A stretch of 63,367 nucleotides of DNA, counting the filler, from Vannella sp. (Eukaryota), in assembly GCA_023345925.1 (NCBI GenBank). It is 8 parts of 8 records of this genome, joined end to end, with 100 filler letters (N's around TTAATTAATTAA, not from the genome) between each part and the next. Parts side by side here need not be neighbours in the genome. Positions count along the whole stretch, not along the records: positions 15,221 to 23,540 come from JAJQQN010001250.1; 7 more parts are not named here. One strand, written 5' to 3'. The notes under the pieces were generated by a model, which did no database searches, was not told the DNA's origin, and was given only the letters and a program-made list of their open reading frames with translations. Position numbers and translations under genes: made by a program. Every line of letters starts with the position of its first letter. Within the stretch, counting starts at the first letter, position 1. Positions 6,264 to 54,517 of this stretch are shown in pieces.

Positions 6264-6363
6264 NNNNNNNNNNNNNNNNNNNNNNNNNNNNNNNNNNNNN
6301 NNNNNNNTTAATTAATTAANNNNNNNNNNNNNNNNNNNNNNNNNNNNNNNNNNNNNNNNNNNN
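6264..6363. other. Artificial contig linker (N44-TTAATTAATTAA-N44); identical linkers at 15121-15220, 23541-23640, 34375-34474, 38892-38991, 43789-43888 and 54109-54208
   Basis: Seven identical 100-nt N-padded spacers with a palindromic core carrying stops in all six frames. Confidence 0.98.
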
Positions 6364-11962: not shown

Positions 11963-12147
11963 CTGCACTAAAACACTGGAAGATATCTCTTTCAGGCTCT
12001 TCTTCTTGGAACGCATTGATTAGTGTAGTGGGGACCTGCTCCAGCCCTCTGCCGCCCCTTCATATCCTCCTTCATGACATCATAATGATGGCATTATGAC
12101 CATACATCATAATTGCGGCATTGTTCTCCGTACGTGGTGACCGCGGC

Positions 12148-15045
12148 ATGCCTCTTTTGTGTCCTCGTTCAACCACAAGGTTGCGCTTCTTTACGATCGC
12201 CCACGCTTATGTGTTCCTCATCCTGCTCCCATTAGCTTTCTCGCAGCCCTACGTCGACAGCTTTACTCAGGGAAGCGGGGGTAACTCGTCATTTAGCAGT
12301 TGTTGCCCCAGTGTTGCACAGGTTTCGGAAGACCTCCCTGTGTGCGACGAAACGGAGCTGATTTGGTGCCGAAGAAGGGTCGATGCCAATCTCTACTGTC
12401 CGTCCTCTCTCCCAGCACCCTTTCTGAACGTGGAAGTCGGACCGGGTGGGGGCGTTTCCCTTGTGAACGGTCTAACCACTTGTTCGATGACTGTGAGCAT
12501 TCTCTATGAAGTTGACTTCTTCTCAAGTGACTTTGTATTCCTCGAGGCAGAACCCAGATTCCCCTCCGCGAGATCATTCCAGGTTCCCTACTCCTTTTCC
12601 AGTGATCCTGGTGTCACAATGCAGATGCAGATGTTCGTCACAACGTTCTTTCCGGGACCCCCCTTCTCAGAAATGTGCAGCCATCCTACGGTCCTTACAT
12701 TCCAAACAAGTGGCTCAGTCCAGTCGTTCCTTTACAAAGATTTCTCTGGTTTCTGCACTTTCGAGTCCATCAGCAAAATAGAAATTCAATTGACCTTCCC
12801 AAGAGGCGTCTTCAAAGCCTCTGGAATCGGATACTCCGCGCCTCCTCCTTCTGTCACTTCCTCCCCAACAGAGACGCCTTCTGTCACTGCATCGACAACC
12901 GTGACTTTAAGTCCCTCTCAAACGTCTGGGCTCTCATCTAGCAGCACTGCAAGTCCCTCTGAGACCGAAAGTAACACGATTACTCCCTCCCTTTCGTCAA
13001 GCCCTTCCGAAACCTCCACCCCGTCTTTGAGCAGCTCTTCTACTGCTTCCGAAACCTCCTCTGATTCGCCAAGCCAAACTCTCAGTTCGTCAACAAGTGA
13101 TACGGCGAGCCCCTCTGCGACCTCCACGTCATCAGAGACCAACACAGTCACTTCTTCCTCTTCGTCAAGCTCTTCAGGAACCTCCACCCCATCATTGACC
13201 GGCTCTCCCAGTGTTTCTTCATCCTCTTCCGAGTCGACGAGCCCAAAACCCAGTGCCTCAGCTAGCGAAACAGCAAGTGACACCGCGAGCCCCTCTGTCA
13301 CCTCCACGTCATCAGAGAGCAACATGATCACTCCCTCCTCTTCTTCGAGCTCTTCTCAAGCCCCCACGCCGTCCAGCAGCAGCTCTCCCAGCCAAACGCC
13401 CAGTCTCTCAGCAAGCGGAACAGTGAGTCCTTCTGCGACCTCTACACCAGATAGCAGTACGATCACGCCCTCCTTAAGCTCTTCCCAAACCTCCACGCCT
13501 TCAAGCAGTAGCTCCCTCAGCCCTTCTGCGACTTCCTCGGTAATGCACAGTCACAGTGGCAGTCCAACATGTACTACCAGCCCTTCCTCAACCTCAACGA
13601 TGTCAAACAGCAACTCTGAGAGTCTTTCCTTGGCCAGTAGCAGCTCTCCAAGTGTGTTTCTGACTATCTCTTCCACTTTCAGCCCTTCTTCTACCACCAG
13701 TGGCCTCCTGACAAGCCTCACGCCTTCAGAAAGCCAGTCTCCAAGTCTGTCATTGATCTCTACGGCATCAGAGAGCTCTTCTCTCAATTCTCCCCTGGTG
13801 AGTGCTTCCGCAACGGCTTCTCACAGTCAGACTCCTTCAAACCAAGCCATTACGGTTAGTACTACAATAACGCAAAGTCCTTCCGAAACCACTCCAACGA
13901 GGAACACTCTCTCTGAAAGTGCTTCTGGTTCTCTCTTGCTTACAACATTTCCATCTAGAGACCAATCTCCGACTCCTGTTTTCACACTCTCTCGAAGGGT
14001 ATCAATGCGTTCTGGGAATGTCTCTCCCTTTGGCTCAAGTTCTCTGATTCCAAGTGCATCTTTGTCCCGCAGTGAGGCTATTGAATCAGTTACAATTACC
14101 TCTAATCCTTCTGATGCCGCCTTCAGCCAAAGCTTAAGGAGTTCACTGCAACCTGGAATCTCACAGTCATCAAGTGCAAGTTCTTCTTTATCATTTCCTT
14201 CCAATACTTCAAAACCAAGTCTTGGACCTTTCATCTCTAACCGATTGAACTCTGCTTCTGCTGGAGTGATAGATACAACTGTAGAAAGAACGATTTCAGG
14301 GAGCAACCCAACAAGGACAAGAAACGCCAGCCCTTCCAAAGATAGACAATCCTTGTTGGAAGACTTAGGCACCAAATGCTCTTCCTGCGAGTTCTCCTCG
14401 ATTATCATCGATATGGATAGCCGACCTGATGACCAACCTTTGCTTGTGGAACTAACTGGAACGAGAGACCAGATTGTGGCGATTCTGTCAATACCTCGTG
14501 AAATGAGCAACCAAGTCAACACCTCGTTGAACATTGCATTTGCTTCGAATGTACCATCAAGCTTCTTCAATCAACCAGTAGGAGGGATCATCTTGGACAT
14601 AACCCTTGTTGATCAGTATGGACGCTTCATCACCAAGTTGGAAGATTCACTGACTATCTGCTTGCCTCGACCAAATCGGACATCCTTTGATGGAAAGAAC
14701 ATTTGCCTGGGCTATTATGTTGAGCAGAAGGCCAAGTGGAAGTGTGAGGATCTTTGCTTGATCAAATCACCAACGCAGGAGGGATACCTCTGTGGCGACA
14801 CAAGACATCTCACAAACTTTGCGTTACTCCTTCGGGGGCAGGATAAAAGCAGCGATGGAGATCCTTGCACAACAGAAGAACAGGACTACACCTTACTCTG
14901 GATAGCACTTGGATTAGCTGGTGGAGCGATCATTGCGATTCTCTTTTCGATCGTCCTCATCGAAATCAAGTACCGAAGGAGAGAATATCGAAAAAATATT
15001 GTTCTGAGCCTCATTCAAGCAGAAAATGAGCGCCTTCGGATATAG
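12148..15045 (+). CDS. Single-pass cell-surface protein with Ser/Thr mucin stalk and GPS (GAIN-like) autoproteolysis motif
   Basis: Signal peptide, Cys-containing N-domain, long S/T-rich stalk, CLGYY...WKCED...LCGDTRHLTNFALLL, one TM helix and a short basic cytoplasmic tail. Confidence 0.85.
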   Translation: MPLLCPRSTTRLRFFTIAHAYVFLILLPLAFSQPYVDSFTQGSGGNSSFSSCCPSVAQVSEDLPVCDETELIWCRRRVDANLYCPSSLPAPFLNVEVGPGGGVSLVNGLTTCSMTVSILYEVDFFSSDFVFLEAEPRFPSARSFQVPYSFSSDPGVTMQMQMFVTTFFPGPPFSEMCSHPTVLTFQTSGSVQSFLYKDFSGFCTFESISKIEIQLTFPRGVFKASGIGYSAPPPSVTSSPTETPSVTASTTVTLSPSQTSGLSSSSTASPSETESNTITPSLSSSPSETSTPSLSSSSTASETSSDSPSQTLSSSTSDTASPSATSTSSETNTVTSSSSSSSSGTSTPSLTGSPSVSSSSSESTSPKPSASASETASDTASPSVTSTSSESNMITPSSSSSSSQAPTPSSSSSPSQTPSLSASGTVSPSATSTPDSSTITPSLSSSQTSTPSSSSSLSPSATSSVMHSHSGSPTCTTSPSSTSTMSNSNSESLSLASSSSPSVFLTISSTFSPSSTTSGLLTSLTPSESQSPSLSLISTASESSSLNSPLVSASATASHSQTPSNQAITVSTTITQSPSETTPTRNTLSESASGSLLLTTFPSRDQSPTPVFTLSRRVSMRSGNVSPFGSSSLIPSASLSRSEAIESVTITSNPSDAAFSQSLRSSLQPGISQSSSASSSLSFPSNTSKPSLGPFISNRLNSASAGVIDTTVERTISGSNPTRTRNASPSKDRQSLLEDLGTKCSSCEFSSIIIDMDSRPDDQPLLVELTGTRDQIVAILSIPREMSNQVNTSLNIAFASNVPSSFFNQPVGGIILDITLVDQYGRFITKLEDSLTICLPRPNRTSFDGKNICLGYYVEQKAKWKCEDLCLIKSPTQEGYLCGDTRHLTNFALLLRGQDKSSDGDPCTTEEQDYTLLWIALGLAGGAIIAILFSIVLIEIKYRRREYRKNIVLSLIQAENERLRI

Positions 15046-15220
15046 AGAATTCACCGCCCCACTCAACCACGTCCGCTGGCCTCCTTTGAAAAGTGGCTTC
15101 AAATTCGACCGAGACCATTANNNNNNNNNNNNNNNNNNNNNNNNNNNNNNNNNNNNNNNNNNNNTTAATTAATTAANNNNNNNNNNNNNNNNNNNNNNNN
15201 NNNNNNNNNNNNNNNNNNNN

Positions 15221-16612
15221 AAGGTCTTTCATCCCTTCGAAGACATCTGGCAACTCTGTCAGCTCGTTATCTGCCAAGACAAGCTCTTTGAGGGATTCCA
15301 ACTGTCCCAGCGCCACTGGGAGTGTCTTCAGTTCGTTCCAACGGAGACCTAACCACTGTAATCCCTTGAGACTACAGAGGGACTCTGGAATGCTGGTCAG
15401 CCCGTTGCGGTGCAAGTTGAGATAAGTCAAGTTAGGAGCAGAGAGGATGGCTTCTGGTACTGTGGAGAGCTTGTTGTTCTCAAGGTCCAACTTGGTGAGC
15501 TTCTGCATGCGGTCCCACCCTGACCCTAAGCTCGCCAGACGGTTCCCTGGCATCAGAAGGGATTGGAGACTCGCGGATACTTCAAACACTCCTTCGGGTA
15601 CTCCCACGAAGCGGTTGTGCCCCAAATCCAACTTTGTGAGCTTCTCGAGGTGTTTCATGCCCTCAGGAAGTGATGTGAGCGTGTTCTTGCTGAGAAGGAT
15701 CTCTGTAAGGAAAGGTTTCTCCTCCCACTTGATGTCAAAGGCCTCCTTCAAGCCCTTATCACTCTGGTTGAGTACAGGGTTCTCAAATGCACGTGTCACG
15801 CCAAACTTAGAACCACCAGCAGTTGGTGGGCCCCCACGACCGGCACCAGGAGGTGCTGGGCGACCTCCTGTTTGAGGAGGGACAGGGCGGCCACCTGCAG
15901 GCACAATGGTGAGAAGTGAGCTACTTGTGCAGATGTACCTACCTTCGCTTGCACCAGGTGGGGAAGGACGGCTTGTGGGTGGCGTGGGCCTTCCAGCAGG
16001 AGGAGGTGGCTGGGAATTCTTCCGCTCGGGAGGCTGAGGGCGGCCAGCTGGTGGAGGGGGTTGAGGTCTACCAGCAGGAGGAGGTGGTTGGGAGTTCTTC
16101 CGCTCGGGAGGCTGAGGTCTACCAGCAGGTGGGGCCGGTTGCTCTAGCTTTTCGGTGGAAGCCTCGGAAGTCGATTCGAGAGTGGATGGAGAGCGTTGAC
16201 GAGAAGGAGGAGGTGGAGGACGTTGACGTGGGATTCCTGGAGAGTTTTGGGGCTCGTCTCCTCCAGAGACTGAAGAAGATGGATCAGAGCGGGCTCCTTC
16301 CGTTTCTGGCTCCTTGTTGCCCTCTTCCTGTTCAGTTTTGGACTCCACCTCGATGCCATAGAGAGTTTGAGATTCCCCTGATAGAGAGAATCCTTCCACC
16401 TTACTGAGAGCTCCAACAAACCCAAACCAAGTCGAACATGAAGCTTCCGACAACTCCAGCAGCTCCTGAAGCTCCTGCATACGGACTTCGCGCTCCTCTG
16501 CTAACTCACTCAGCAGTTCATCTCGCTCCTGTACGAGTTCTCGAATGGAAGCGAGCACTTGCCGGCCTTCCTCACGAATCCTTTCAAGCTCTTTAGCACC
16601 CGCCTCCGCCAT
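15221..16612 (-). CDS. Coiled-coil / Pro-rich / leucine-rich repeat protein, 3'-partial
   Basis: LxxLxLxxNxL repeats running into the linker, PPPPAGRP repeats, and a probable in-frame 48-nt intron at 15942-15895. Confidence 0.85.
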
Positions 16613-16695: not shown

Positions 16696-18924
16696 TCATT
16701 CTTTAGGAAGAAGAAAGGGGCGAGACGCTTGGTGAAGGAGAGAAGGGTGGGCTGCGTCAATCCAATCGCGAAGGGAAGCCAATCGGTCATCCCACCAATA
16801 AGGGACGGGCACTAAGGTGATTCCAAGTTGGCGGCAAAGGTCTGCCTTCTCCCGGTCCCGCTGTTGGTAGAGTTCCAAGGACCCAAAGGCAGGCAAATCA
16901 GAATAATGGTGTTCTCCGTTGTACTCAAAAGCGAGCCGATACCGTGGAATGTAGATGTCAAGCTCCATAAGGTTACCACCAGCTCGCTGAGCTTCAGTCA
17001 TGATGAACTCTTCGACAATCTCTTCATCCGGGAAGAGTTTTCGGGCACAAATGCAAAGCCAGCGTTGACGTGAACGCTTGTCTTTGCGTGTTAATAATCC
17101 CTCGTCCCATTGTACATTCGGGTGGAGCTTGCGGAGGACGTTAATCAATCGGTGATGCGTTAAGAGTCCGCCCCCTCCTAAAGAAATGATTTGAGGGACG
17201 GAAATACGGTACCAGTCCTCATGCTCCCGGATGTCATAGTAGTGCTCTACTTTGGTAATGAATTCTGCCACATTATCTTCATTGTCCCAGTATCCCGGAG
17301 GGAGCCGGCGCTCTTGGATTATGGAGTCCCATGGATGATCTGGGTAGAGTTGCTTGAGCATGTCAATGAAGCTGGAGTAGTATCCCAGAATTGAGCCGCC
17401 GCCTTTGTCCCGTAGCTGAGCAGAAGATGCCTTGGCCCAATCATCCAAGCATTGAATGTTCAGGTGCTCTTGTCCAATCTTTTCTAAAAGCTTACGCCGA
17501 TTCTCTTCTTTCTGTAGGAAGTTCCGAGGTAGACGATGGTCCACGCTTGGCTCCCAATCGTACTCAGGATAGACCTCCTGAAGCAGTTCAAAGTATGACT
17601 TGGCTCCTCGGAGAAGCTGGCTTCCGCCATGTGCAATTATTGTTTGACTGTCCACTCCCAAAAGATCTCTTGGAGAAGCCAGTCCCAATGAGTTGCGAAA
17701 GTTCTCGAGAAACCTTCGCTTGTTTGGTAGAGTGGACCAGTGGTATCGAGGATGCCGGCGCAGAATTGTCCCCCATTCATCCTCTGGATAGAAGAACTCG
17801 AGAAACCCGTGGATTGTGTGGAAACGTGACAAAAGGACATGCCCGTTATATCGCTTGATATCATGAGTTCGCACACGGCGCCAATCTTCTTTAGAGCGAA
17901 TGCAGAGGTGCTCCTCAAGATGGTCAAGTACTTCGCGGAGCTTTCCTTCTTGGTCCCAATACCCAGGAGGGAGTTTGTGAGAGCTGAAGTTCCAGGCATC
18001 CCACTTCTGAGGTATCAAGGTTTGAAGCATCGTGTAACAGCTGTCATATTTCTCGAGAATAGGGCCAAGGCCGACCTGATACAAACGACGTTTCGGTATT
18101 GCATCCCATTCGAATGCGGTATGGAGTTTCTCCCTTTTGGAAACTTGTTCTATCAACTTCCTCTGCCCCTCAATCGTTTCATATGACTCTTCGGTGGGGA
18201 AAATGCCTTCCCAGTCAATTTCAGGGAAGAGTTTGGGGAACATATCTCGATAACGCGGGTATCGGGAGAGTAGCCCAGCACCTCCATATTCTTTAATCCG
18301 CTGATGAGTCACATTTACCCAATCGAATGGCTCTTTGATGCCCAATTTGACGATTAGGCTATCCAAAAACTCTCGCTGCTTGCCCAAGTCATTCCAATTG
18401 ATTGCTTCTGCTTTCGTAAGTCCCTGGTATTGAAGAAGAGCATCTTTGTGCCCATACAGAAGAAAGCGTTTTCCGTTGTGCCTGCACAAGAGTGCGCGAG
18501 TGACTTGCTGAGGCTGCAACTTCTCCAAAGATGCTACACGCTCAATGAAGGAATGCAAGTTCTTCTCGTCCTCAAAGTAAGATCGAGGAACTAGCAAAGG
18601 GACTGTGATGGGGTCCCACTGTTGCTCTGGATAGAGGGCTTTGAGTGTTCCGAACAAGGAGGAATGGAGAGAGATCAAGCGCCGTCCGCCATTCTGTGCG
18701 ATCTGCTCCCGGGTTACCAGATTCCAATCTGCAGGTGATCGGAGGCCTCTCTCTTCTGCAAAGGTCTCGATGAAGGACCGTTGATTAGATTCGGATGCCC
18801 AAAATCCCGCAGCTTTGGGGGTATTCGCAGCTTCCTTGATGGCTGGCGCGGAGGAAGATGCCTGAGGAACCCTCCATGACGTTCCTCCTCGACATCCCTC
18901 CCGCAAAGCCCGCCGTGCCCACAT
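16696..18924 (-). CDS. Tandem-repeat protein (8 x ~70-75 aa) with C-terminal Vsr/DUF559-like PD-(D/E)xK nuclease domain; possible mitochondrial presequence
   Basis: First ATG at 18924 (MWARRALREGCRGG...). Repeats follow GYW..N.R.F....L.I....DW..V....I...GG..LL...YP...W. C-terminus ELDIYIP..LAFEYNGEHHY..RDREK..C..GITLVPVPYWWD. Intronless. Confidence 0.85.
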   Translation of the reverse strand: MWARRALREGCRGGTSWRVPQASSSAPAIKEAANTPKAAGFWASESNQRSFIETFAEERGLRSPADWNLVTREQIAQNGGRRLISLHSSLFGTLKALYPEQQWDPITVPLLVPRSYFEDEKNLHSFIERVASLEKLQPQQVTRALLCRHNGKRFLLYGHKDALLQYQGLTKAEAINWNDLGKQREFLDSLIVKLGIKEPFDWVNVTHQRIKEYGGAGLLSRYPRYRDMFPKLFPEIDWEGIFPTEESYETIEGQRKLIEQVSKREKLHTAFEWDAIPKRRLYQVGLGPILEKYDSCYTMLQTLIPQKWDAWNFSSHKLPPGYWDQEGKLREVLDHLEEHLCIRSKEDWRRVRTHDIKRYNGHVLLSRFHTIHGFLEFFYPEDEWGTILRRHPRYHWSTLPNKRRFLENFRNSLGLASPRDLLGVDSQTIIAHGGSQLLRGAKSYFELLQEVYPEYDWEPSVDHRLPRNFLQKEENRRKLLEKIGQEHLNIQCLDDWAKASSAQLRDKGGGSILGYYSSFIDMLKQLYPDHPWDSIIQERRLPPGYWDNEDNVAEFITKVEHYYDIREHEDWYRISVPQIISLGGGGLLTHHRLINVLRKLHPNVQWDEGLLTRKDKRSRQRWLCICARKLFPDEEIVEEFIMTEAQRAGGNLMELDIYIPRYRLAFEYNGEHHYSDLPAFGSLELYQQRDREKADLCRQLGITLVPVPYWWDDRLASLRDWIDAAHPSLLHQASRPFLLPKE

Positions 18925-19256: not shown

Positions 19257-20314
19257 TTACTCACCCTCACCACTAGGTTCAGCAACGTCAGCTACTCGCG
19301 GCTTGGCCTTGAAGGGCTTGTGGAAGGTGAAATAAATATCTTTCACTTTCTTAGCACCAAGTCCATCAATGACTGCAAGCTCTTCCATGTCTGCAGCAAT
19401 GGTCCGTTTCAACGTCTTCTGATCGTCAGCAGAAGGCAAAGAACAACGCCCAAACACCTACCCCGTATGAAGTGGCAAGGCTGCGCACGTTCCGCTTGTT
19501 AACTGTTCTGATCGATGTCATGCAGTCAGTCAAGCGTGATTCATAGTCTTCCTCTATCTTCTTTTGAATGGCATCTGCTGGCTTGTTCTCGTACACTTTG
19601 AAGGTTTCAATGTACCTTGCTGCTTCGTCGTTGCTACGTTTGAGTTGAGATCGACTTTCATTAATGAGATAGTCTACCTACCTCCATGAACAAAGCAAGG
19701 TGGCGTCATTTCGGAGGCAAAGAGTGCTGATGTGTTGAAGAGGGCCCAAGTCCGGCTTTGTAGCTTCGATTAGAAGAGGAAGAAACGTCTGAGGAACATA
19801 CTGAGTCTACCAAGCAGAAGACCACGCGAAGGAGGAAACTGCAGGCGCGAAGACCGCGGAACCTCGCTTCAAGATATCCAGGATGTTCTGTATGGTACTT
19901 CACACTGATAAAGAGGCCACAGCGTGTGGAAGAGAACACGTAGTCTGGTACAATGTCCGAGAAGAGGTACTTGCAATGCTCAAGGCGGCGAAGAATGGGG
20001 TTGCCTTCTTGGCAAGGGTTCACAAGAAGCTCCCTGCCGCTGGTGATGGGGCGCTTTTCGTGTGCTACTGGCATTGGGAGGGGTTTGGTTAAGGGTGTGG
20101 CACCTTTAGTAGCCGTTTGGAGAGGTCCTGCCCGAGGGACTGTGCTTGGAAAGGTATTGCCAACATTGGGAACGATGTGGCGAGGAGGAGGAGCCACCTG
20201 AGGGATAACAGGAAGAGGATGCTTTGGGGTTTTTTGCAACTCTTCGAAGAGATCCAACATGCACGCTTCCTCATCCTCCCCAAGCTCCGGTATGACTATC
20301 GGGGCTCGCGACAT
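19257..20314 (-). CDS. ERCC1: DNA excision repair protein ERCC1/Rad10 (multi-exon)
   Basis: LLVNPCQEGNPIL, PDYV, FISVKYH..HPGY, EAARYIETFKVYENKPADAI and HhH motif GLGAKKV. Several short introns. Confidence 0.92.
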
Positions 20315-20510
20315 CTCCTGACCAGTAAATGTTGGCACTTTCGCCTAAACAATTGAACAAAGGTGAAAATCACATTGAGAGGAGAAAAAGATGCCTTCTG
20401 CTTTCAGTCAGCTTCAATGAATGATCTTGGAACCGATTAAATTTAGCAATATTGATCTCTCAGAAAACCGATTTAGAGGACACATTTAGGATAAAACCAC
20501 TCTTCCTTGC

Positions 20511-23500
20511 ATGCCGACGCCCAGCACGCAGGGCGTCCTACTGGGCTTCACCCTCTTGGACAAGGTCCACTCCAAGACTGTGGTTGTGGAGTGCCATACT
20601 TGGCGTATTGCACACGCCAACAAGCATTTCTGCAACTTCTTCAAGACAGTCGAACGGATCCCTGGGAAGACGTTGGCGTTTCCCACTAGTCTAAGGGGTG
20701 TCCTCTCATCAAATAGCATGTCAAAGCTTGAGTCCCATTCGAGGGATGGGCTGTTCCCCTTTGTTCTGGAGGCTGAGGTGCTGGACGAGTACCGAACGAT
20801 CAACATGGAGGCTCATGTTGAGCTGGTCTCGCTCCCTTATCGTCTTTCTGAAGACCCTAAGGGAGAAACCGGTGAGGAGAACACAGAATACTTTATCATC
20901 ACCTTCCGGAAGGAAAGCTTACAGAGGAATGAGAGCATCAGGACCCTCCAATGCCTCAAGTACACCACAGCCAGCATCTCCCTCTTTGATGTGATGTCTC
21001 TCCATTCACCCAAGCTACTCTTACAGAGTAGAGATGCTAAACGGCAGGGTATCACCGCTGAGACGTTCTTTAACGATCCCCGCTTGCGCACCGCCATGGA
21101 GGAGCTCTACTCCTCCTCCTCGGAGACTCTATCTTCGGTCTCCATCAGTGAGTTCGTCCCTATTCCTTTCAGACGAACGGATTTCGATACGAACCGATCC
21201 ACTCCTCGCTGTCCAAGGAGGTCGCTTCCTGATATCCACAACTCCCCCAAGCCCCAACGGACTGACACCCAACCGGATGGAGAGGAGAGGTTCTATGCCA
21301 TCACTTTCGTCAAGCTGACGGACCCCATCACCAACCACCCCTGCTTCTTTGTCCGAAAGATGGACATCACGGACATCAAGAGAAGCGAGCAGAAGCTCGA
21401 GCACGCTCTCACTCAGAGTCAACTGACAGCAGACTTCATAAGCAATCTCTCTCATGAGATCCGTACGCCTCTCAATGGTATCTTGGGAATGCTTCAGTAT
21501 CTGGCCGACACCGACCAGACATTGGACCAGTACAATGCCACCAGCACGGCCATCAGCTCGACCATCGCACTGACGGATCTTCTGTCTGATGTTTTGGACT
21601 TCTCCAAAATCGAAGCGGGAAAGCTCACCATCCGACCAGGACCTGTTCTTGTGCGAGATCTCATTCGGTTGCTGGAAGAGGTTTGCCAGCTATTTGGTAC
21701 GGCTGTGACCTCCAAAAACTTGGGCCTCCACTTGGATTACCCTATGGGATTTGCGTTTCGCGACCATCACGTCTTAGAGACGTCAATGGCTTCCTTTCCA
21801 AGTTTCATTATTTCGGACATTCATCGGATCCGGCAAGTTCTCATCAATCTGATAAGCAATGCGGTCAAGTATACGCCCTCTGGACATGTCTGCGTTCGGT
21901 TAAAGGTACTGTCTAATGGGAGTAAAGGATCAAAGGGACTTCCTATTCGCATTGAAGTCGAAGACACTGGCGAGGGCATTGATACCAGTAGCCCGTTAAG
22001 CGTTTTCCAGAGATTCCAAAGAATGGCTGGAGACACAGGATTGAATGTGGACGATGTATGCCGTCCAGAGGGCACTGGAATCGGACTCTCCATCAGCAAA
22101 AAAATCACGGAAATGTTAGGCGGTCAAATGCTTCTGACATCAAAGCTTGGAGAGGGTAGCACCTTCACACTATGCCTCCCTGAGACTATCTCGACAGAGA
22201 AGGATGCTAGTGAAAACTCTCCTGTATCTTTTCGAAAAACGCCACGGTGCTCTGTTCCAGACATCACTTTGCTTTCGGCCGGAACTGCAGAGTGGAAAAA
22301 GAAGAGCCCTCGCAGATTTTCTGCGTCAGACACTGCCCTGAAAGAGATTGGCTCTTTAAAAGGACTGGTGGTCGGGACAGCTCTGCAAATAGTCAGCCCT
22401 CAGCACTCTCTACTGATAGGCCCAATGGTCAGATCTTTCCTGAAATCGATTGGAGTAGTACACTTTGATACCTTCTGTGACCTCCGGGACATAACTGCCG
22501 TTGAATCAAGCAGAGTCACTTACTTCCTGGATATTGCAAATACTGTGCCATTCCCGTCTGAGCAGTCTGCATCAAGTGGAAGGAGGGAGTGCATATCTGA
22601 CGAGTTGGACCGCGAGCAGCATCTCTGGATAACTCAAACCTGCGCACAAATCAAAGCTCTCTATGAGTCAATATGTCGTGCACATGGAACCCCTACTGAA
22701 TCGCTTAAGGCCACTGAGGGGCCCACTCACACCCACCCGTCTAATCAAGCCCTCTTGTTCGTTCTAATTCCGCTGGGATGCGTTAATCTACTTGCTTCCG
22801 TACTTCTGAATGTCCCTTGGTTTACTTCTTGGTTAGCCTCTCCTTTAATACCGGTCCAAATGATATCTGCTCTAAGTGGCAATTATATACAATGTAACGG
22901 GGTCAAAAGCCGACATAGCCCACGAATATCGCCAACCCTTTCACCCCGCACCAAGAACCCGTCACCTCTTCATTCTCCCAGGGCTACACAGTCTACCCTA
23001 GTGACGAACCGTTCAAACTCAACACCTCGTGCTAACTTCTTACCGTCAGTGCCCCAGAGTGTGCTTGGGGGTGAGCTTTTCCGCCTTCTTGTGGCAGAAG
23101 ACAACAAATTCAACCGCCAGGTATTCCAACGCCTCCTGAGCAAGATACGAACCGATGTAGACATTGATTGGGCGTTTGATGGCGCAGAAGCCGTCCAAAA
23201 GTTCCAGGACTCCTTGCACTCGCAAAACCCTTACAGCCTTTGCTTTATGGATATCCAAATGCCTCACCTGAATGGATACCAAGCCACGGCTGCCATTCGT
23301 CAACTGGAGGCGACCTTCTACTCTCCTCGACTCCCGATTATTGCTCTCAGCGGTAACACAGCAGAAGAGTCTCGTAAGAAGTGTCTGTCCGTTGGAATGG
23401 AAGCTTCTCTGTCCAAACCTATCCGAAAGGAGCTTCTCACTGCAACTCTGGAGACCTTCTTGCCAGCGCACCCCCAACAGCTCCTGGCGAGTTCATGTGA

Positions 23501-23519
23501 CACAGTAAATGGTAAATAG
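20511..23519 (+). CDS. Cytoplasmic hybrid histidine kinase (PAS-like input, HisKA, HATPase, receiver)
   Basis: H-box FISNLSHEIRTPLNGILG; N-box QVLINLISNAVKYT; G1 VEDTGEGI; G2 GTGIGLSISKKI; receiver LVAEDN...FMDIQMP..NG...SKP. Confidence 0.95.
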   Translation: MPTPSTQGVLLGFTLLDKVHSKTVVVECHTWRIAHANKHFCNFFKTVERIPGKTLAFPTSLRGVLSSNSMSKLESHSRDGLFPFVLEAEVLDEYRTINMEAHVELVSLPYRLSEDPKGETGEENTEYFIITFRKESLQRNESIRTLQCLKYTTASISLFDVMSLHSPKLLLQSRDAKRQGITAETFFNDPRLRTAMEELYSSSSETLSSVSISEFVPIPFRRTDFDTNRSTPRCPRRSLPDIHNSPKPQRTDTQPDGEERFYAITFVKLTDPITNHPCFFVRKMDITDIKRSEQKLEHALTQSQLTADFISNLSHEIRTPLNGILGMLQYLADTDQTLDQYNATSTAISSTIALTDLLSDVLDFSKIEAGKLTIRPGPVLVRDLIRLLEEVCQLFGTAVTSKNLGLHLDYPMGFAFRDHHVLETSMASFPSFIISDIHRIRQVLINLISNAVKYTPSGHVCVRLKVLSNGSKGSKGLPIRIEVEDTGEGIDTSSPLSVFQRFQRMAGDTGLNVDDVCRPEGTGIGLSISKKITEMLGGQMLLTSKLGEGSTFTLCLPETISTEKDASENSPVSFRKTPRCSVPDITLLSAGTAEWKKKSPRRFSASDTALKEIGSLKGLVVGTALQIVSPQHSLLIGPMVRSFLKSIGVVHFDTFCDLRDITAVESSRVTYFLDIANTVPFPSEQSASSGRRECISDELDREQHLWITQTCAQIKALYESICRAHGTPTESLKATEGPTHTHPSNQALLFVLIPLGCVNLLASVLLNVPWFTSWLASPLIPVQMISALSGNYIQCNGVKSRHSPRISPTLSPRTKNPSPLHSPRATQSTLVTNRSNSTPRANFLPSVPQSVLGGELFRLLVAEDNKFNRQVFQRLLSKIRTDVDIDWAFDGAEAVQKFQDSLHSQNPYSLCFMDIQMPHLNGYQATAAIRQLEATFYSPRLPIIALSGNTAEESRKKCLSVGMEASLSKPIRKELLTATLETFLPAHPQQLLASSCDTVNGK

Positions 23520-23874
23520 AACCTCTCATTCTTTCCTCGGNNNNNNNNNNNNNNNNNNNNNNNNNNNNNNNNNNNNNNNNNNNNTTAATTAATTAANNNN
23601 NNNNNNNNNNNNNNNNNNNNNNNNNNNNNNNNNNNNNNNNATCAGGGGAGGAAGCGCTCCGTACGTAGAGATATCTCCGAAAACGAGCAGAAGTGGGAAA
23701 GGGGGCCACGTTCCAAATCCGTACTTACTGGGTGGACCTCTTACACCAGGGCCCTTGCATAACGCTCTGCACCCACTACCCGATCTGCTTTGTTGTTCTG
23801 GGGTCTCCAATGCATCAGTAACTGTTAAATATATGAGTCCATTTACAAATTCATCTTTCCTCTCTTTAGCATGT

Positions 23875-30185: not shown

Positions 30186-31394
30186 CTATTCTTTGGGAAG
30201 ATAATCAGGATTCACTGCTGGATCGATGCCGCGGTCGATGTTGTATCGCTCTACGAGCTCTTCCCAAGTCACTCCGTCATTGCGAATGCGCCAGAAGTAG
30301 GGGTTCTTTAGCTTGCCGGATAGCTTCCACTCACCAAAGTGCTTCACTTTGAGAATGGTGCCTGCGGGAGGAGGGTGCTTAAAGTCAGTATAAGTGCATC
30401 GGATGGTTATCATCACGTCGTTAGGCAGCATACAGTCGTATCCTACGCATTTAGAGGCTTTGCAGACCATCTTCACCTCTGCGTCTTGCTGTAGCTTGAC
30501 CTTGAGCATGTTATAAGATCTTCCCGCCAGATAACTGGCCTCTGGCTTTCTTATCATCAATCCCTCGCCATTTCGGTTCACTACTTGGCGTAGTTCTTCT
30601 TTGAGATGCTCTGTGCCTGTGCATTTGGTGTAAGGGACGAACTCGAGAAAGTCACTCTCAGAAACAGTGTTTCTCATCTGAGAGAGCCTTTCCTCGAAGG
30701 GGAGGTTGTCATCAGGCGAGTCAAAGGCCATGAACTTGCAAGACCTCCAATCCTCTTCGTTGCTGCTCTTCAGCACCCGAATCAGGTGGCCAAACCGCTC
30801 GTAGCCGGCCCAAAGCTCCCCGTCGAGAGCGATATTGGGGGGTAGGCTGTCTAGGAACCACTGTGGAGGAGATAGAGGTCTTCCATACCGTGAGACAAGG
30901 ATGGAACCACTCCAGAAGGCGCGAATACCATCGTATTTCTCGGAGATCCAATAGCCGGTTGGATCGATCTCCTCATTCCAGACCTGTGAGAGCATCAGGT
31001 CCTTACCTGGAGCTCTCTTCTTCGAAGTAGAACTCCCTTCTGGAGGGCGCTGGGTGTGAAGGGGATCAGTGGAAGGAACGGAGAGCTTTCCTTCCTCTTT
31101 CTGCAGGATCTTCGCCCAGTCCTTGTCTGGATAGCTGGCTTCCAAAGCTTTCTTAAGATCCAGGTACTGTGAGAGTAAGCTACTTCCTCCACTCTTGCGG
31201 ACAGTGGCAGCGGTCACATTGCCCCAATCCTCATCCGAGGACCATCCCAACCGCGCGGATAGTTCATCCCAGAAGGCTCTCTGGTTCTCTACCTTCTTCC
31301 AATAGCCAGACGGCTTCCTCTTCACAACCTCCTCTGTGGCCAGCCCTCTTCGGACCAACCCACAACCAAGCGCAGCCCTTCTCCAAGGGAACAT
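30186..31394 (-). CDS. Minimal ATP-dependent DNA ligase with one N-terminal copy of the repeat seen in 16696-18924 and a putative mitochondrial presequence
   Basis: Motif I SEKYDGIR, III LDGEL, IIIa FMAFD, IV EGLMIR, V LKVK and a short OB-like end. N-terminus MFPWRRAALGCGLVRRGLAT. Intronless. Confidence 0.9.
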   Translation of the reverse strand: MFPWRRAALGCGLVRRGLATEEVVKRKPSGYWKKVENQRAFWDELSARLGWSSDEDWGNVTAATVRKSGGSSLLSQYLDLKKALEASYPDKDWAKILQKEEGKLSVPSTDPLHTQRPPEGSSTSKKRAPGKDLMLSQVWNEEIDPTGYWISEKYDGIRAFWSGSILVSRYGRPLSPPQWFLDSLPPNIALDGELWAGYERFGHLIRVLKSSNEEDWRSCKFMAFDSPDDNLPFEERLSQMRNTVSESDFLEFVPYTKCTGTEHLKEELRQVVNRNGEGLMIRKPEASYLAGRSYNMLKVKLQQDAEVKMVCKASKCVGYDCMLPNDVMITIRCTYTDFKHPPPAGTILKVKHFGEWKLSGKLKNPYFWRIRNDGVTWEELVERYNIDRGIDPAVNPDYLPKE

Positions 31395-33090: not shown

Positions 33091-34899
33091 TGCAGCCACA
33101 CGAGCCGGGTCAAAATGCACAGCAATAAAGTTCCTAGTTCCTTCTTGGGGTGGCGCTGCTTTGAAGGATGCACATGTATCATGTCTGCACCAAAGATACA
33201 ACAATCTGCGCAGTGCCTCACCTTACCCCCTGCTTCTTTTGATGACAAGTGCTGGTTCGACGTGTCGATGGTGTCTTCGACCAACAAGACCGCTGTGTCA
33301 CCAAGCCTAAAGGCATGGGTAGCGAACATCTTGTCTACAAGTGCTGGGAAGCTGACACGAAGCTCATGGAGGAGAGTGATCTTCCGCATGCAAACGGACT
33401 ACAAGAGGAAATCACCTCACACGCGCCTATTCGCTTCTCCATCTTCACCCTGAAAGAGTGGGAGTTCTACATCACTGAAAAGAAAGAGGAATGCGAGCCC
33501 GAATCGATCAAGAGGAGAGCCGTCTCGAAGCACCATCCGGAGCCTTCTTCGAGACGGCTCTCCTCTTGTCAAAGAGTACGAGGAGGCCATCCGCTGGCCT
33601 CTCAACAAGATCCCGCCGGTTTGGGCTATCAATTAGTGGGAGAAGCTTGTTGTTCCGCCGGGTGACATTGTTCCGTGCTTGGGTTTTCCGCTTCGCCCTC
33701 GTTTGGAACTCCTTCACTGAGGAGGCTCGAGTAGAGTCTGAGTACAAGACTCAACTCTAAAACGAAATTCTCAATGAATGGAGATCCTGCGAGTGAAATA
33801 AAATCGCCTCCCAACCCAGTCCCCACACGCCGCTCAAAGCCCCTCACGCCTTTTGTCGTTGTCTTCCACGGCCCTCTCAGCCCCATCTACCATCAGCCCC
33901 TTCTCGATGTTTTCCACGTCCCTCACTGATCCTCTCATTGTCTCTCACTCTCCGTCAAGGAGTTGGAGGACTTCATAGCAGCAAAGAAGGGACGTCTCTC
34001 AACCCCTCAACAAGCTCCCTTCTGGGCCTCTCACACCTCTCAAGGCCTCATCAGGTCCCCTTCTAGCCTCTCAATATCTCATCTAGCCCAGTCAAGCCAT
34101 CATAACGCCCTCTCGAGCCATCATCAGGCCCTTCTAACCATCATTACGCCTCTCGAGCCATCATTAGGACTCATCATGCCTCCTTCTATGCCCTGCTAAG
34201 CCCTCTCAACTGTGGTTAACTCCGGTTGTCCAGACCCAACAAGCAACAGAATCCCAGAATCCTTGGTCTTGTTGCGGAGCTTGTTAAAAAGCGTGTCTCG
34301 CGAATCCCACCAGATCACGACGCGAATCCCACCAAGATCGTTTCCTGGAATAAATCCAAATATAGATCCTGTTTNNNNNNNNNNNNNNNNNNNNNNNNNN
34401 NNNNNNNNNNNNNNNNNNTTAATTAATTAANNNNNNNNNNNNNNNNNNNNNNNNNNNNNNNNNNNNNNNNNNNNGCGATCGGTCAATCGCTTTTAAGTCG
34501 GCAATCGATCGTTCCTCAAGGCGGACTCCCGGATTGCAGATCTTCTTTGTTCATTCCTTGAACGCTCCTTGACTTTTCCTTTTCTGCCATTCTTGCCGGC
34601 CGACCCCTTCTCCTCCTTGAGAATCGGAAAATGTGCTTCTTGTAAAGTGGTTCTTCATTAGGAAGAATCATTGAATTTTTTTGTTGAGTTACCAAATGCG
34701 AAAAGAACCGCTACGACAAATGGTTCCAATATGGAAAATTTACTCGAACGAATACTCCGGTACTCCGAGAAGAAAACTGGCCAACTTTTTGGACGCTTGG
34801 CTTCAGAATTGTCTCAAAACCGAGCGAAATGCCCAACACGGGTCATTATTGGTCAACAATCACTTCAATGTACCCTCCATTCCATCAAGTATCATCTGA

Positions 34900-38891: not shown

Positions 38892-38991
38892 NNNNNNNNN
38901 NNNNNNNNNNNNNNNNNNNNNNNNNNNNNNNNNNNTTAATTAATTAANNNNNNNNNNNNNNNNNNNNNNNNNNNNNNNNNNNNNNNNNNNN

Positions 38992-43472: not shown

Positions 43473-44385
43473 TCCTCAAATAAACTCGTTTCCTCAATTA
43501 AATCATATTTTGGTCCTTTCTCCATTATGACGGAGGACTGGCAGAGAGGGGGAATGGGTCACGTGACAGTTTAGTTGAGAGAACGGAGACGGCCGCCTAA
43601 GATGGTTCCTGAGCAAGGGCTGAAAGGCTTGTATGAGTTGCTGGAGATGCTGTCAATGGTCCAGTGGATTTGTGAACGATAAGAAGAGGATGGGGAAGAA
43701 CAAGGCCACTGGCAAGAAGCCCTTCAACATATTGAGAAGCGTCAATCACGTCCATTTGCTGGTCCCAAGCGACAGCGTTCCTTCTTCGNNNNNNNNNNNN
43801 NNNNNNNNNNNNNNNNNNNNNNNNNNNNNNNNTTAATTAATTAANNNNNNNNNNNNNNNNNNNNNNNNNNNNNNNNNNNNNNNNNNNNCCCAGTCAACAT
43901 CGATGAGTACCAAGCTTGCTTGCTGCTCTGGCAGCAACTACCTGGGCAGAAAGTTCGTCATGTTACTGCAAATGGGGCGGTTTCTCTTCACTGAAGACCA
44001 AAGGAGGTCTGGGCTCAACCTGGCAACGCTCGCTCTCTACACGCGACAAACAAGGCCACGGTTCAGCAAGTAGTTCGCTCGAAAGTGCTTGAATACGTCG
44101 TTCAACCGGTGTAGAGCGTCCTCGGTCCAATGGGCACTGCAAAAGCTACCACCTTTGTATGAGGCGTACATTCGATGTATCCTTCAAGGGCCGATTTATC
44201 ATTGTGATGACCAAACCAAAATAACGCATGTCTGTGCAACCCTAAACCCTAACCGCATTTTCGATGTTTTCAAAGTCGGCATTTCCCTCTCACAGGTTTG
44301 GCCCAGGAGAATATGGTGACAATTTTAGTATCCGCTGTACTCGAGCAAATACAGGGATTATTTATTGTCCACAGTTTTTATTCCG

Positions 44386-54108: not shown

Positions 54109-54517
54109 NNNNNNNNNNNNNNNNNNNNNNNNNNNNNNNNNNNNNNNNNNNNTTAATTAATTAANNNNNNNNNNNNNNNNNNNNNNNNNNNNNNNNNNNN
54201 NNNNNNNNATGAGTGGGATTCATTGGATGAGAGCAGGATAGTCACTCGAGGAACCCAATCTCACTCGTAGATCCCTACCAACTCTTCGATGTCCCTGCAG
54301 CTCCAAAGTGGAATGCAGAGTTTGACTTTCTTGCCATTCTCCGCGTTGCCTCTCGTCATTCCCAGAGACCTAAGAAAAGCACTCCTCTTTCAGCAGATAA
54401 ACTAAAATCGTAAACTGCCCTTGACGTGCTTTTGTTCACACGAAACACATGGCGATGGTGATAATCATGTATTAATCATCATGGAATCACGCCATAATCA
54501 CTTTTTGTGGTCGCGGA

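What the first reader, a model, noticed from the sequence alone, without database searches (positions are those of the whole stretch)
16696..18924. Eight-repeat array fused to a Vsr/DUF559-like endonuclease: possible modular sequence-reading nuclease
Seen: 8 divergent units with a conserved W/F/DW/GG/YP..W scaffold and variable intervening residues, then ELDIY..LAFEYNGEHHY..RD.EK..GITLV.VPYW with putative catalytic residues intact. Established: this motif pattern typifies Vsr-like/EDxHD-type nucleases in homing endonucleases and large DNA viruses. Inference: the architecture parallels TALEN or PPR-nuclease designs, with the variable repeats possibly encoding target specificity.
Basis: partly seen in the sequence, partly recalled or inferred. 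Interest (0 to 1): 0.8.

Follow-up and report, generated by a model that had tools for sequence, protein, structure and literature searches.

The report
Helical-repeat Vsr-type nuclease with ligase partner
A microbial eukaryote's gene joins eight copies of an unstudied 75-residue helical module to a Vsr-type DNA-cutting domain; it likely nicks DNA in partnership with a nearby DNA ligase carrying the same module, and it belongs to a very large family that nobody has characterised.

Summary
Window 16696-18924 (minus strand) is one intact 742-residue ORF with a basic leader, eight ~75-residue repeats (the second degenerate) and a C-terminal nuclease domain.

The nuclease domain matches phage homing-endonuclease families by sequence. 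Its predicted fold matches I-Bth0305I, Vsr, DUF559 and RAP domains. Its D/E/G/H/D/K set is intact in 146 of 154 family domains.

The repeat has no solved structural analogue (best Z 4.6 of 48,161 chains). The eight repeats are only about 25% identical to each other, and the variable positions are spread over all helix surfaces. That does not resemble a TALE-like code.

A LigE-type DNA ligase gene 11 kb away (30186-31394) carries one copy of the same repeat. In other organisms repeats, nuclease and ligase are fused (5 of 152 proteins; 14 of 47 metagenome or viral loci).

The family is very large (6780 cluster representatives). It occurs in eukaryotes, giant-virus MAGs and mobile-DNA-like contigs, and is known only as Pfam DUF4046.

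My best reading is a repeat-tethered DNA-nicking enzyme coupled to a ligase, possibly mitochondrial. The rivals are a RAP-like RNA factor and a sequence-reading homing nuclease. There is no biochemical evidence for any of these.

The parts
16696..18924 (-). Complete single-exon CDS (742 aa plus stop) of the repeat-nuclease protein
   Evidence: GC 0.50 and GC3 0.52 lie within the range of neighbouring genes.
18820..18924 (-). N-terminal leader (35 aa, 6 K+R against 2 D+E, pI 11.4), presequence-like and disordered in the model
   Evidence: Targeting is inferred only. By eye the leader shares W..RRA.L..GC with the leader of the ligase gene.
18616..18819 (-). Repeat 1
   Evidence: E 1e-22
18412..18615 (-). 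Repeat 2 (degenerate)
   Evidence: E 4e-05; low pLDDT
18211..18411 (-). Repeat 3
   Evidence: E 2e-20
18001..18210 (-). Repeat 4
   Evidence: E 2e-11
17773..18000 (-). Repeat 5
   Evidence: E 3e-19
17554..17772 (-). Repeat 6
   Evidence: E 3e-20
17329..17553 (-). Repeat 7, conserved by position with the penultimate repeat of relatives (41-50% identity)
   Evidence: model pLDDT 94
17107..17328 (-). Repeat 8, conserved by position with the last repeat of relatives (37-64% identity)
16699..17106 (-). Vsr/EDxHD/DUF559-type PD-(D/E)XK nuclease domain. Conserved residues in P0001 numbering: D670 (16957-16959), E681 (16924-16926), G684, H687 (16906-16908), D704 (16855-16857), K707 (16846-16848)
30186..31394 (-). 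Partner gene: 402-aa LigE-type ATP-dependent DNA ligase with a basic leader, one copy of the same repeat (aa 20-93, about 31116-31337) and a KYDG adenylation motif at aa 153

Best explanation
This is an intact eukaryotic gene for a protein made of a basic leader, eight ~75-residue helical repeats and a C-terminal Vsr/EDxHD-type nuclease domain that keeps every conserved active-site residue. It likely acts as a DNA-nicking (or DNA-cutting) enzyme that the repeat array holds on DNA, working together with a LigE-type DNA ligase encoded 11 kb away that carries one copy of the same repeat.

Shown:
- the domain anatomy;
- the nuclease fold and its conserved residues;
- the shared repeat on the ligase;
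- recurrent repeat-nuclease-ligase fusions in other organisms;
- a very large family in eukaryotes, giant-virus MAGs and mobile-DNA-like contigs.

Inferred:
- that the repeats bind DNA, each unit through its conserved N-Q-R patch and basic linker, with extra units adding affinity or reach;
- that the two nuclease-proximal repeats form a fixed platform with the catalytic domain;
- that cutting is followed by resealing by the ligase, in a repair, recombination or DNA-maintenance step;
- that both proteins are imported into the mitochondrion (sub-claim, about 50%).
For: Nuclease domain.
- PHROG 559, 3339, 9084 and 7140 (homing or intron-encoded endonucleases) match residues 660-728 at E 9e-14 to 5e-05.
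- tblastn finds the domain in 52 phage records.
- VIA gives Z 9.3 to I-Bth0305I (97 of 97 residues), 8.5 to Vsr and 8.5 to DUF559 3hrl.
- A profile search hits the Vsr-like domain of AbaSI at E 0.04.
- The domain is found in 150 of 152 family proteins, and D-E-G-H-D-K is intact in 146 of 154 domain hits.
- FASTKD4, an inactive RAP protein, has Asn where Vsr has His69 (PMC11879112, passages read). This family keeps the His.

Link to DNA.
- The same repeat precedes a LigE-type ligase in the window. That ligase matches the LigE structures 4d05, 8u6x and 6gdr at E 4e-36 to 7e-25.
- 5 of 152 family proteins carry this ligase after the nuclease. Five more carry short tails homologous to its start.
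- 14 of the 47 loci with repeats plus nuclease (84 loci examined) have the ligase directly downstream on the same strand.
- LigE enzymes are minimal nick-sealing DNA ligases without a DNA-binding domain (PMC7470946, passages read). An added N-terminal helical module would fill that gap (inference).
- In giant-virus locus L005 the repeats sit between phage-type zinc-finger modules (E 8e-10 to a phage endonuclease with DUF4379 and CapR) and the nuclease.
- Marine loci place family genes beside a resolvase, an integrase, a DNA methylase and a SNF2 helicase.

Targeting.
- 53% of 150 family N-termini are basic and acid-poor, against 9% of control windows taken from within the same proteins.
- All 5 full-length eukaryotic repeat-ligase orthologues have such leaders.
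Against: - Nothing shows that the repeats touch nucleic acid. The repeat fold has no solved analogue.
- In this protein the array is charge-neutral (78 K+R against 78 D+E).
- The nuclease fold matches RAP domains of RNA-binding proteins equally well: T. gondii mitoribosome chain Z 10.0, FASTKD4 Z 8.9.
- The best (weak) whole-model Foldseek rows are mitoribosomal helical-repeat proteins (E 5e-3).
- The targeting argument rests on a crude composition count, not on a trained predictor.
- The ligase link is guilt by fusion. In the quick tree the fused forms lie in clades other than the window's.
Confidence: 0.5

Rival explanations
1. It is an organellar RNA-binding or RNA-processing factor. This would be a lineage-specific analogue of HPR/OPR-RAP and FASTK proteins: a helical array reads an RNA, and the Vsr-like domain cleaves it or merely clamps its end.
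For: - The architecture is the same: leader, helical repeats, then a C-terminal Vsr-like domain.
- The top structural rows for the domain include a T. gondii mitoribosomal chain (Z 10.0), the FASTKD4 RAP domain (Z 8.9) and a Tetrahymena mitoribosome chain (Z 7.4).
- The weak whole-model Foldseek rows are the same proteins and PPR10.
- The ESM Atlas neighbour cluster is auto-named 'RAP domain-containing protein' (score 0.93).
- The leaders are presequence-like.
- The family is large and paralogous, as PPR, HPR and OPR families are.
Against: - Pfam RAP matched none of 81 members at E<=1e-3, and this protein matched no Pfam family at E<=1.
- By sequence the domain is closest to phage DNA homing endonucleases.
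- Fusion to a LigE-type DNA ligase recurs.
- The family occurs in giant-virus MAGs and beside recombinases and methylases, where organellar RNA is not an issue.
- The repeat is a ~75-residue unit, not a 35-38-residue hairpin.
Confidence: 0.2
2. It is a sequence-reading homing-type nuclease. Each repeat reads a few base pairs, so the array specifies a long DNA site that the nuclease cuts. The gene would be a selfish or domesticated mobile-element nuclease.
For: - The nuclease domain is homologous to intron-associated phage endonucleases.
- Repeat number varies from 2 to 25.
- The distal repeats diverge freely while the two proximal ones are fixed.
- Giant-virus and integrase- or resolvase-adjacent copies exist.
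- Known homing endonucleases use tandem DNA-binding modules (PMC3239194, passages read).
Against: - The window copy sits among ordinary nuclear genes with matching composition. I did not search for flanking element ends or repeats around this gene.
- The repeats share a conserved polar N-Q-R patch, and the variable positions are ordinary helix surfaces.
- One repeat alone is appended to a ligase.
- The leader suggests a host, organelle-directed function.
Confidence: 0.15
3. The repeats are protein-protein or localisation modules. For example, they could dock nuclease and ligase onto a common scaffold or nucleoid protein, and DNA contact would come only from the catalytic domains.
For: - The repeat array is charge-neutral in this protein.
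- The repeat has no resemblance above noise to any solved nucleic-acid-binding fold.
- The same module sits on two different enzymes.
Against: - Arrays of up to 25 units are unusual for a docking tag.
- In L005 the repeats occupy the DNA-binding region of a homing-endonuclease-like protein.
- The family median pI is 9.2.
Confidence: 0.1

Closest known systems
EDxHD homing endonucleases (I-Bth0305I, PDB 3R3P)
   Same: Both have a Vsr-like catalytic domain joined to a modular N-terminal binding region. The fold matches at Z 9.3 over the whole 97-residue chain. The D/H/D residues are kept.
   Different: There are no NUMOD motifs, and the gene is not inside an intron or intein. It is a nuclear gene with a leader. 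The binding region is 8 units of a different ~75-residue repeat.
Phage zinc-finger / CapR / DUF2726-type endonucleases (PHROG 559, e.g. the ORF between split terminase CDSs of Staphylococcus phage vB_SscM-1)
   Same: This is the closest sequence match for the nuclease domain (E 5e-15 for the domain alone). Giant-virus relative L005 combines those zinc fingers with the repeats.
   Different: The window protein has no zinc fingers. Those phage proteins lack the repeat.
RAP-domain helical-repeat proteins (FASTK family, HPR/OPR-RAP, T. gondii mitoribosomal RAP proteins)
   Same: Both have a leader, a helical array and a C-terminal Vsr-like fold (Z 8.9-10.0).
   Different: There is no Pfam RAP, FAST, PPR, HPR or OPR match. 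The repeat unit is about twice as long. The Vsr His is retained, whereas FASTKD4 has Asn and is inactive. Those proteins are not known to be fused to a DNA ligase (recalled).
Pfam DUF4046 (PF13255)
   Same: Homologues P0002 and P0003 carry the precomputed PF13255 label. An ESM Atlas cluster with PF13255 on 55% of its members neighbours the repeat region (score 0.89).
   Different: The model barely covers the family: 1 of 81 members at E 9e-4, and none for this protein. It carries no functional annotation.
Eukaryotic LigE / kinetoplastid LigK ligases
   Same: The partner gene is LigE-type. LigE occurs patchily in eukaryotes, and LigK appears related to it (PMC10665377, passages read).
   Different: The described eukaryotic LigE enzymes carry C-terminal PBZ domains. 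This one has an N-terminal DUF4046-type repeat and, in relatives, a fused nuclease.
TALE / TALEN-type arrays
   Same: Both have a tandem array of variable length attached to a nuclease.
   Different: Repeat identity is about 25% against near-identity in TALEs (recalled). There is no two-residue hypervariable site. The unit is ~75 residues.

Membership tests
Vsr-like / DUF559 / DUF2726 PD-(D/E)XK nuclease fold | alpha/beta restriction-endonuclease-like core that superposes on Vsr | tested here: met
   Model residues 617-735: Vsr 1cw0 Z 8.5 (104 aligned, rmsd 3.1); 3hrl Z 8.5; 3r3p Z 9.3. Domain pLDDT is above 95.
Vsr-like / DUF559 / DUF2726 PD-(D/E)XK nuclease fold | Catalytic Asp / His / Asp (Vsr D51, H69, D97) conserved | tested here: met
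   D670, H687 and D704, plus E681, G684 and K707, are invariant in 96 of 96 aligned sequences and intact in 146 of 154 domain hits. The correspondence to Vsr numbering is inferred from motif order and from PMC3239194.
Vsr-like / DUF559 / DUF2726 PD-(D/E)XK nuclease fold | Pfam model passes its gathering score | tested here: not met
   This protein has no Pfam family at E<=1. The C-terminal piece scores 12 bits on DUF2726 against a cutoff of 24.7. Relatives do better: L004 scores 27.4 on DUF559 against a cutoff of 20.6, and 3 of 81 members match DUF2726.
EDxHD homing endonucleases | Gene embedded in a group I intron or intein | tested here: not met
   It is a free-standing nuclear ORF between an LRR gene and ERCC1.
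EDxHD homing endonucleases | NUMOD-type N-terminal DNA-binding motifs | tested here: not met
   There is no Pfam hit at all. The N-terminal region consists of the 75-residue repeats.
RAP-domain proteins (FASTK, HPR/OPR-RAP) | Match to the Pfam RAP model | tested here: not met
   0 of 81 family members at E<=1e-3. This protein has none at E<=1.
RAP-domain proteins (FASTK, HPR/OPR-RAP) | Vsr-like C-terminal fold after a helical array | tested here: met
   9i05_Xr Z 10.0; 9gek (FASTKD4) Z 8.9.
RAP-domain proteins (FASTK, HPR/OPR-RAP) | Binds organellar RNA | not testable with these tools
No RNA run holds the gene (this says nothing either way).
PPR / HPR / OPR / TALE-type arrays | 34-38-residue two-helix repeat unit | tested here: not met
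   The modal period is 75 residues, with four to five helices per unit.
PPR / HPR / OPR / TALE-type arrays | A few hypervariable specificity positions on an otherwise constant repeat (TALE) | tested here: not met
   Within-protein repeat identity has mean 25% and maximum 38%. Low-information columns are spread over all helices.
Pfam DUF4046 (PF13255) | Match to the model | tested here: inconclusive
   This protein has no hit and 1 of 81 relatives matches at E 9e-4. However, P0002 and P0003 carry the precomputed label, and an ESM Atlas DUF4046 cluster neighbours the repeats.
LigE-type ATP-dependent DNA ligase (partner gene 30186-31394) | Adenylation domain plus OB-2 domain and a KxDG motif; closest to the LigE structures | tested here: met
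   DNA_ligase_A_M scores 48.6 bits against a cutoff of 26.2. Hits to 4d05 E 4e-36, 8u6x E 5e-30 and 6gdr E 7e-25. KYDG lies at aa 153. The OB_2 domain is only weak (E 0.09).

The most novel reading that the evidence does not exclude
The 75-residue W/GG/YP..W unit is a new class of modular DNA-binding domain. Arrays of it aim a matched pair of enzymes, a Vsr-type nickase and a LigE-type ligase, at particular DNA sites. This would be a natural 'cut-and-seal' system used by amoebae (perhaps on their mitochondrial genomes), by giant viruses and by mobile elements, with the variable helix surfaces of the distal repeats setting target choice.
Probability: 0.2. Interest if true: 0.85.

Novelty: new variant of a known kind. 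Interest (0 to 1): 0.6.

Why it matters
Helical arrays joined to Vsr-like domains are known as organellar RNA factors (RAP/FASTK). Vsr-like domains joined to small DNA-binding modules are known as homing endonucleases. This family fits neither.

- Its repeat has no solved analogue.
- It keeps a complete active site.
- It is repeatedly fused or paired with a minimal DNA ligase.
- With thousands of cluster representatives in eukaryotes and giant viruses, it is among the larger nucleic-acid-enzyme families with no experimental study that I could find.

If the repeats bind DNA, they would be a new natural scaffold for DNA recognition. They might also explain how protists that lack Lig3 handle organellar DNA nicks.

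Tried and rejected
- Pfam on the protein: 0 families at E<=1.
- PDB by sequence, single sequence and 96-row profile: only chance-level rows.
- Foldseek of the whole model against PDB: nothing at E<=1e-3.
- Two-repeat model: Foldseek PDB best E 3.8 and BFVD best E 2.2. VIA-align against 48,161 chains gave 0 with Z>=5. The best was 4.6, and many rows were TetR-type HTH domains at Z 3-4, within noise.
- My idea that I..GG..LL is a helix-hairpin-helix motif found no support in those searches.
- No whole genome is held for the window.
- Nothing earlier in this scan at this place or by sequence.
- Sequencing runs: DNA holders only (biofilm metagenomes) and no RNA holder listed.
- Word-indexed protein searches found few relatives: 2 with the single protein and 5 with the profile. 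The exhaustive search found 6780.
- Cluster look-up gave no names or taxa.
- Literature: 'DUF4046' 0 papers, 'PF13255' 0 papers, and 'Vsr + giant virus + homing endonuclease + repeat' 0 papers. Supplements were not searched.
- Complex prediction on the nuclease domain with the ligase core: no verdict (score 0.00 against a mark of 0.32). The nuclease homodimer job first planned was never run.
- A recent foreign origin for the window copy has no compositional support. GC and GC3 lie within the range of the neighbours.
- A careful ML tree did not finish in time, so only the quick tree is reported.
Full report
**Observation.**
On the minus strand, an ORF runs from ATG 18922-18924 to a stop at 16696-16698 and encodes 742 aa. 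These are the finding's coordinates. Below I use the numbering of P0001, which begins 14 codons upstream of the ATG.

Cutting the sequence at the YP..W anchors gives eight units of 67-76 residues that align on a W / F / DW / GG / YP..W scaffold. A profile trained on repeats from 152 relatives recovers all eight, with E-values from 8e-24 to 4e-05. Repeat 2 is the weak one: it lacks DW and YP..W and is modelled with low confidence.

A profile made only from these eight units finds one further copy in the six-frame translation of the window, at E 1.7e-16, inside a different gene. The repeat is therefore not an artefact of self-alignment.

**Setting.**
The window is eukaryotic nuclear DNA. Its long ORFs encode Sec7-Ank-PH, RhoGEF, LRR, a hybrid histidine kinase, a TPR protein, a GlnRS fragment, a mitochondrial carrier, alpha-actinin and ERCC1. 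ERCC1 lies directly upstream of the gene.

The gene's GC (0.50) and GC3 (0.52) lie within the range of its neighbours. No genome is held for the window. Only DNA runs from biofilm metagenomes hold the stretch. ESM Atlas neighbours of the repeat region are mostly from Tubulinea, which is a lead rather than an identification.

**The nuclease domain.**
Pfam gives nothing for the protein. PHROGs families annotated as homing or intron-encoded endonucleases match residues 660-728 at E 9e-14 to 5e-05, and the isolated domain matches at 5e-15.

tblastn finds the domain in 52 phage records. These include a stand-alone 132-aa 'homing nuclease' of a Bacillus phage. They also include a 310-aa ORF lying between split terminase large-subunit CDSs of a Staphylococcus phage. 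That ORF carries DUF4379 zinc fingers, a CapR domain and a DUF2726-like nuclease.

A five-sequence alignment shows D, E..G..H and D..K invariant. Its profile touches the Vsr-like domain of AbaSI at E 0.04.

The AlphaFold model of the whole protein used a 96-row alignment and has mean pLDDT 88.3 and pTM 0.52, with pLDDT above 95 in this domain. In the model, residues 617-735 align to:
- a T. gondii mitoribosomal chain, Z 10.0;
- I-Bth0305I, Z 9.3, 97 of 97 residues;
- the FASTKD4 RAP module, Z 8.9;
- Vsr, Z 8.5;
- DUF559 protein NGO0050, Z 8.5 (all).

These values are tied within about 1.5 Z, so structure alone cannot separate RAP from EDxHD or DUF559.

Sequence and residue conservation do separate them. 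No member matches Pfam RAP (0 of 81). The D/E/G/H/D/K set is invariant in 96 of 96 aligned proteins and intact in 146 of 154 domain hits across 150 of 152 relatives. FASTKD4, by contrast, has Asn at the Vsr His69 position and was found inactive (PMC11879112, passages read).

**The repeat.**
An exhaustive search of 1.84 billion representatives finds 6780 relatives at E<=1e-3 and 873 at E<=1e-30. Lengths range from about 250 to 2124 residues.

In the best 152 there are 1084 repeat hits, 2-25 per protein, with a modal period of 75 residues. The conserved columns are P10, Y13, W14, N19-Q20-R21, F23, L27, L31, D38-W39, I42, I47, G51-G52, L55-L56, Y59, L66, Y70-P71 and W75. The linker before them is basic.

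Low-information columns lie at i/i+3/i+4 spacing along every helix. That is the pattern of ordinary solvent-exposed faces, not of a single hot spot.

Repeats within this protein are 25% identical on average, with a maximum of 38%. The family median is 34%. Repeats 8 and 7 are conserved by position across relatives: repeat 8 is 64%, 51%, 44%, 38% and 37% identical to the last repeat of five relatives, and repeat 7 is 41-50% identical to the penultimate repeat. The distal repeats show no such conservation.

A two-repeat model (pLDDT 93.9, pTM 0.73) shows four to five helices per unit. It has no convincing solved or viral-predicted analogue:
- Foldseek against PDB, best E 3.8;
- BFVD, best E 2.2;
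- VIA-align against 48,161 chains, none at Z>=5, best 4.6.

Pfam knows the repeat only as DUF4046, and its model barely detects the family. I found no paper naming it.

**The ligase link.**
The extra repeat copy in the window belongs to a 402-aa ORF at 30186-31394, on the same strand and 11 kb away. That ORF has a basic leader, one repeat (aa 20-93) and an ATP-dependent DNA ligase core with KYDG.

The core is LigE-type. It matches PDB 4d05, 8u6x and 6gdr at E 4e-36 to 7e-25 and is about 40% identical to verrucomicrobial ligases. Five full-length eukaryotic orthologues share the leader-plus-repeat N-terminus, and a sixth, shorter ligase comes from a transcriptome.

Relative P0003, also from a transcriptome, has seven repeats, the nuclease and this ligase in one chain. 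Overall:
- 5 of 152 relatives carry the ligase after the nuclease;
- five more have short tails homologous to its start;
- of 84 viral and metagenomic loci, 47 have repeats plus nuclease, and 14 of those have the ligase immediately downstream on the same strand.

In a quick tree of 81 rows, 4 of 5 fused and 5 of 5 remnant forms fall in one clade (SH-aLRT 99), while P0003 lies elsewhere. The window protein lies in a separate 49-row clade without fusions. The careful search did not finish. Fusion is therefore either old with later fission or has arisen more than once.

LigE enzymes are minimal nick-sealing DNA ligases that lack the DNA-binding domain of other ligases (PMC7470946, passages read). 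They occur patchily in eukaryotes, where they act in DNA repair, and kinetoplastid LigK appears related (PMC10665377, passages read).

**Other contexts.**
Giant-virus MAG contigs encode the repeats with Vsr-type nucleases. One of these passes the DUF559 gathering score. Another places two repeats between phage-type zinc-finger modules and the nuclease. Three marine contigs place family genes beside a resolvase, a phage-type integrase, a DNA methylase, a SNF2 helicase, MksE, a PIN domain and very large DUF4379 zinc-finger proteins.

**Interpretation.**
Three lines of evidence point to DNA as the substrate and to the repeats as the DNA-binding or targeting part:
- the complete active site;
- the kinship with phage DNA endonucleases;
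- the recurrent fusion or pairing with a DNA ligase, together with the mobile-DNA and giant-virus contexts.

The conserved N-Q-R patch and basic linker suggest similar, largely sequence-independent contacts by each unit (inference). The two fixed proximal repeats probably form a platform with the nuclease (inference).

A nicking enzyme of Vsr ancestry paired with a nick-sealing ligase suggests a nick-process-reseal step in repair, recombination or DNA maintenance (inference).

Leaders that are basic and acid-poor occur in 53% of 150 family N-termini, against 9% of control windows taken from within the same proteins. The nuclease and ligase of this window have similar leaders by eye. I therefore rate mitochondrial import at about even odds. 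No trained predictor was available.

**What weakens this.**
- Nothing shows that the repeats touch nucleic acid.
- The array is charge-neutral in this protein.
- The overall plan (leader, helical array, Vsr-like end) is that of RAP-type RNA factors, and the weak whole-model Foldseek rows are mitoribosomal proteins.

**Verdict.**
The nuclease assignment is supported. The TALEN/PPR-style code is not supported, though sequence reading is not excluded.

The gene is one member of a very large family that has been named (DUF4046) but never studied. The combination of a repeat of unknown fold, an intact Vsr-type site and a LigE partner makes it a new variant of the array-plus-nuclease theme. It is a good target for biochemistry.

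Noticed in passing
window 30186-31394 (-): A LigE-type ATP-dependent DNA ligase has a presequence-like leader and a single N-terminal copy of the same 75-residue repeat. Orthologues with the same layout exist in other eukaryotic data.
   Followed up: yes
window 16699-16704 and 30189-30194 (C-termini): Both the nuclease and the ligase end in ...PKE. Six of 7 eukaryotic repeat-ligase orthologues and 16 of 152 repeat-nuclease relatives end in KE. By my own estimate from amino-acid frequencies, under 1 would be expected by composition. In the quick tree all KE-ending rows fall in the window's clade. I recall no known signal of this kind.
   Followed up: partly
window 19257-20338 (-): An ERCC1/Rad10 homologue (Rad10 domain E 3e-20), apparently in two exons, ends about 330 bp upstream of the repeat-nuclease start. 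A DNA-repair neighbour may be coincidence.
   Followed up: no
window 6264-6363, 15121-15220, 23541-23640, 34375-34474, 38892-38991, 43789-43888, 54109-54208: There are seven places with paired 44-base runs of N separated by 12 bases. One pair clips the 3' part of the LRR gene next to the finding.
   Followed up: no
L024:6898-9015(-) and L029:9950-12283(-): In two marine contigs the repeat-nuclease gene converges on, and slightly overlaps, a 700-780-aa protein made of 8-10 DUF4379 treble-clef zinc fingers (E 1e-120).
   Followed up: partly
L003:4995-7007(+): A giant-virus MAG protein has about six of the repeats but a different Vsr-type end (..FEYHGDFWHGNP..). The array is thus combined with more than one nuclease subtype.
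   Followed up: no
P0003 C-terminus and P0056 tail: Two relatives carry a Cys-rich CxxC...C....C segment, one after the ligase domain (P0003) and one directly after the nuclease (P0056). Pfam does not recognise it. It may be a zinc finger.
   Followed up: no
window 12121-15045 (+) and 15173-16612 (-): A 974-aa Ser/Thr-rich mucin-like protein with a C-terminal membrane anchor, and a proline-rich LRR protein, flank the gene on its downstream side.
   Followed up: no
window 20511-23519 (+): A hybrid histidine kinase (HisKA, HATPase_c, receiver) lies in a eukaryotic context.
   Followed up: no
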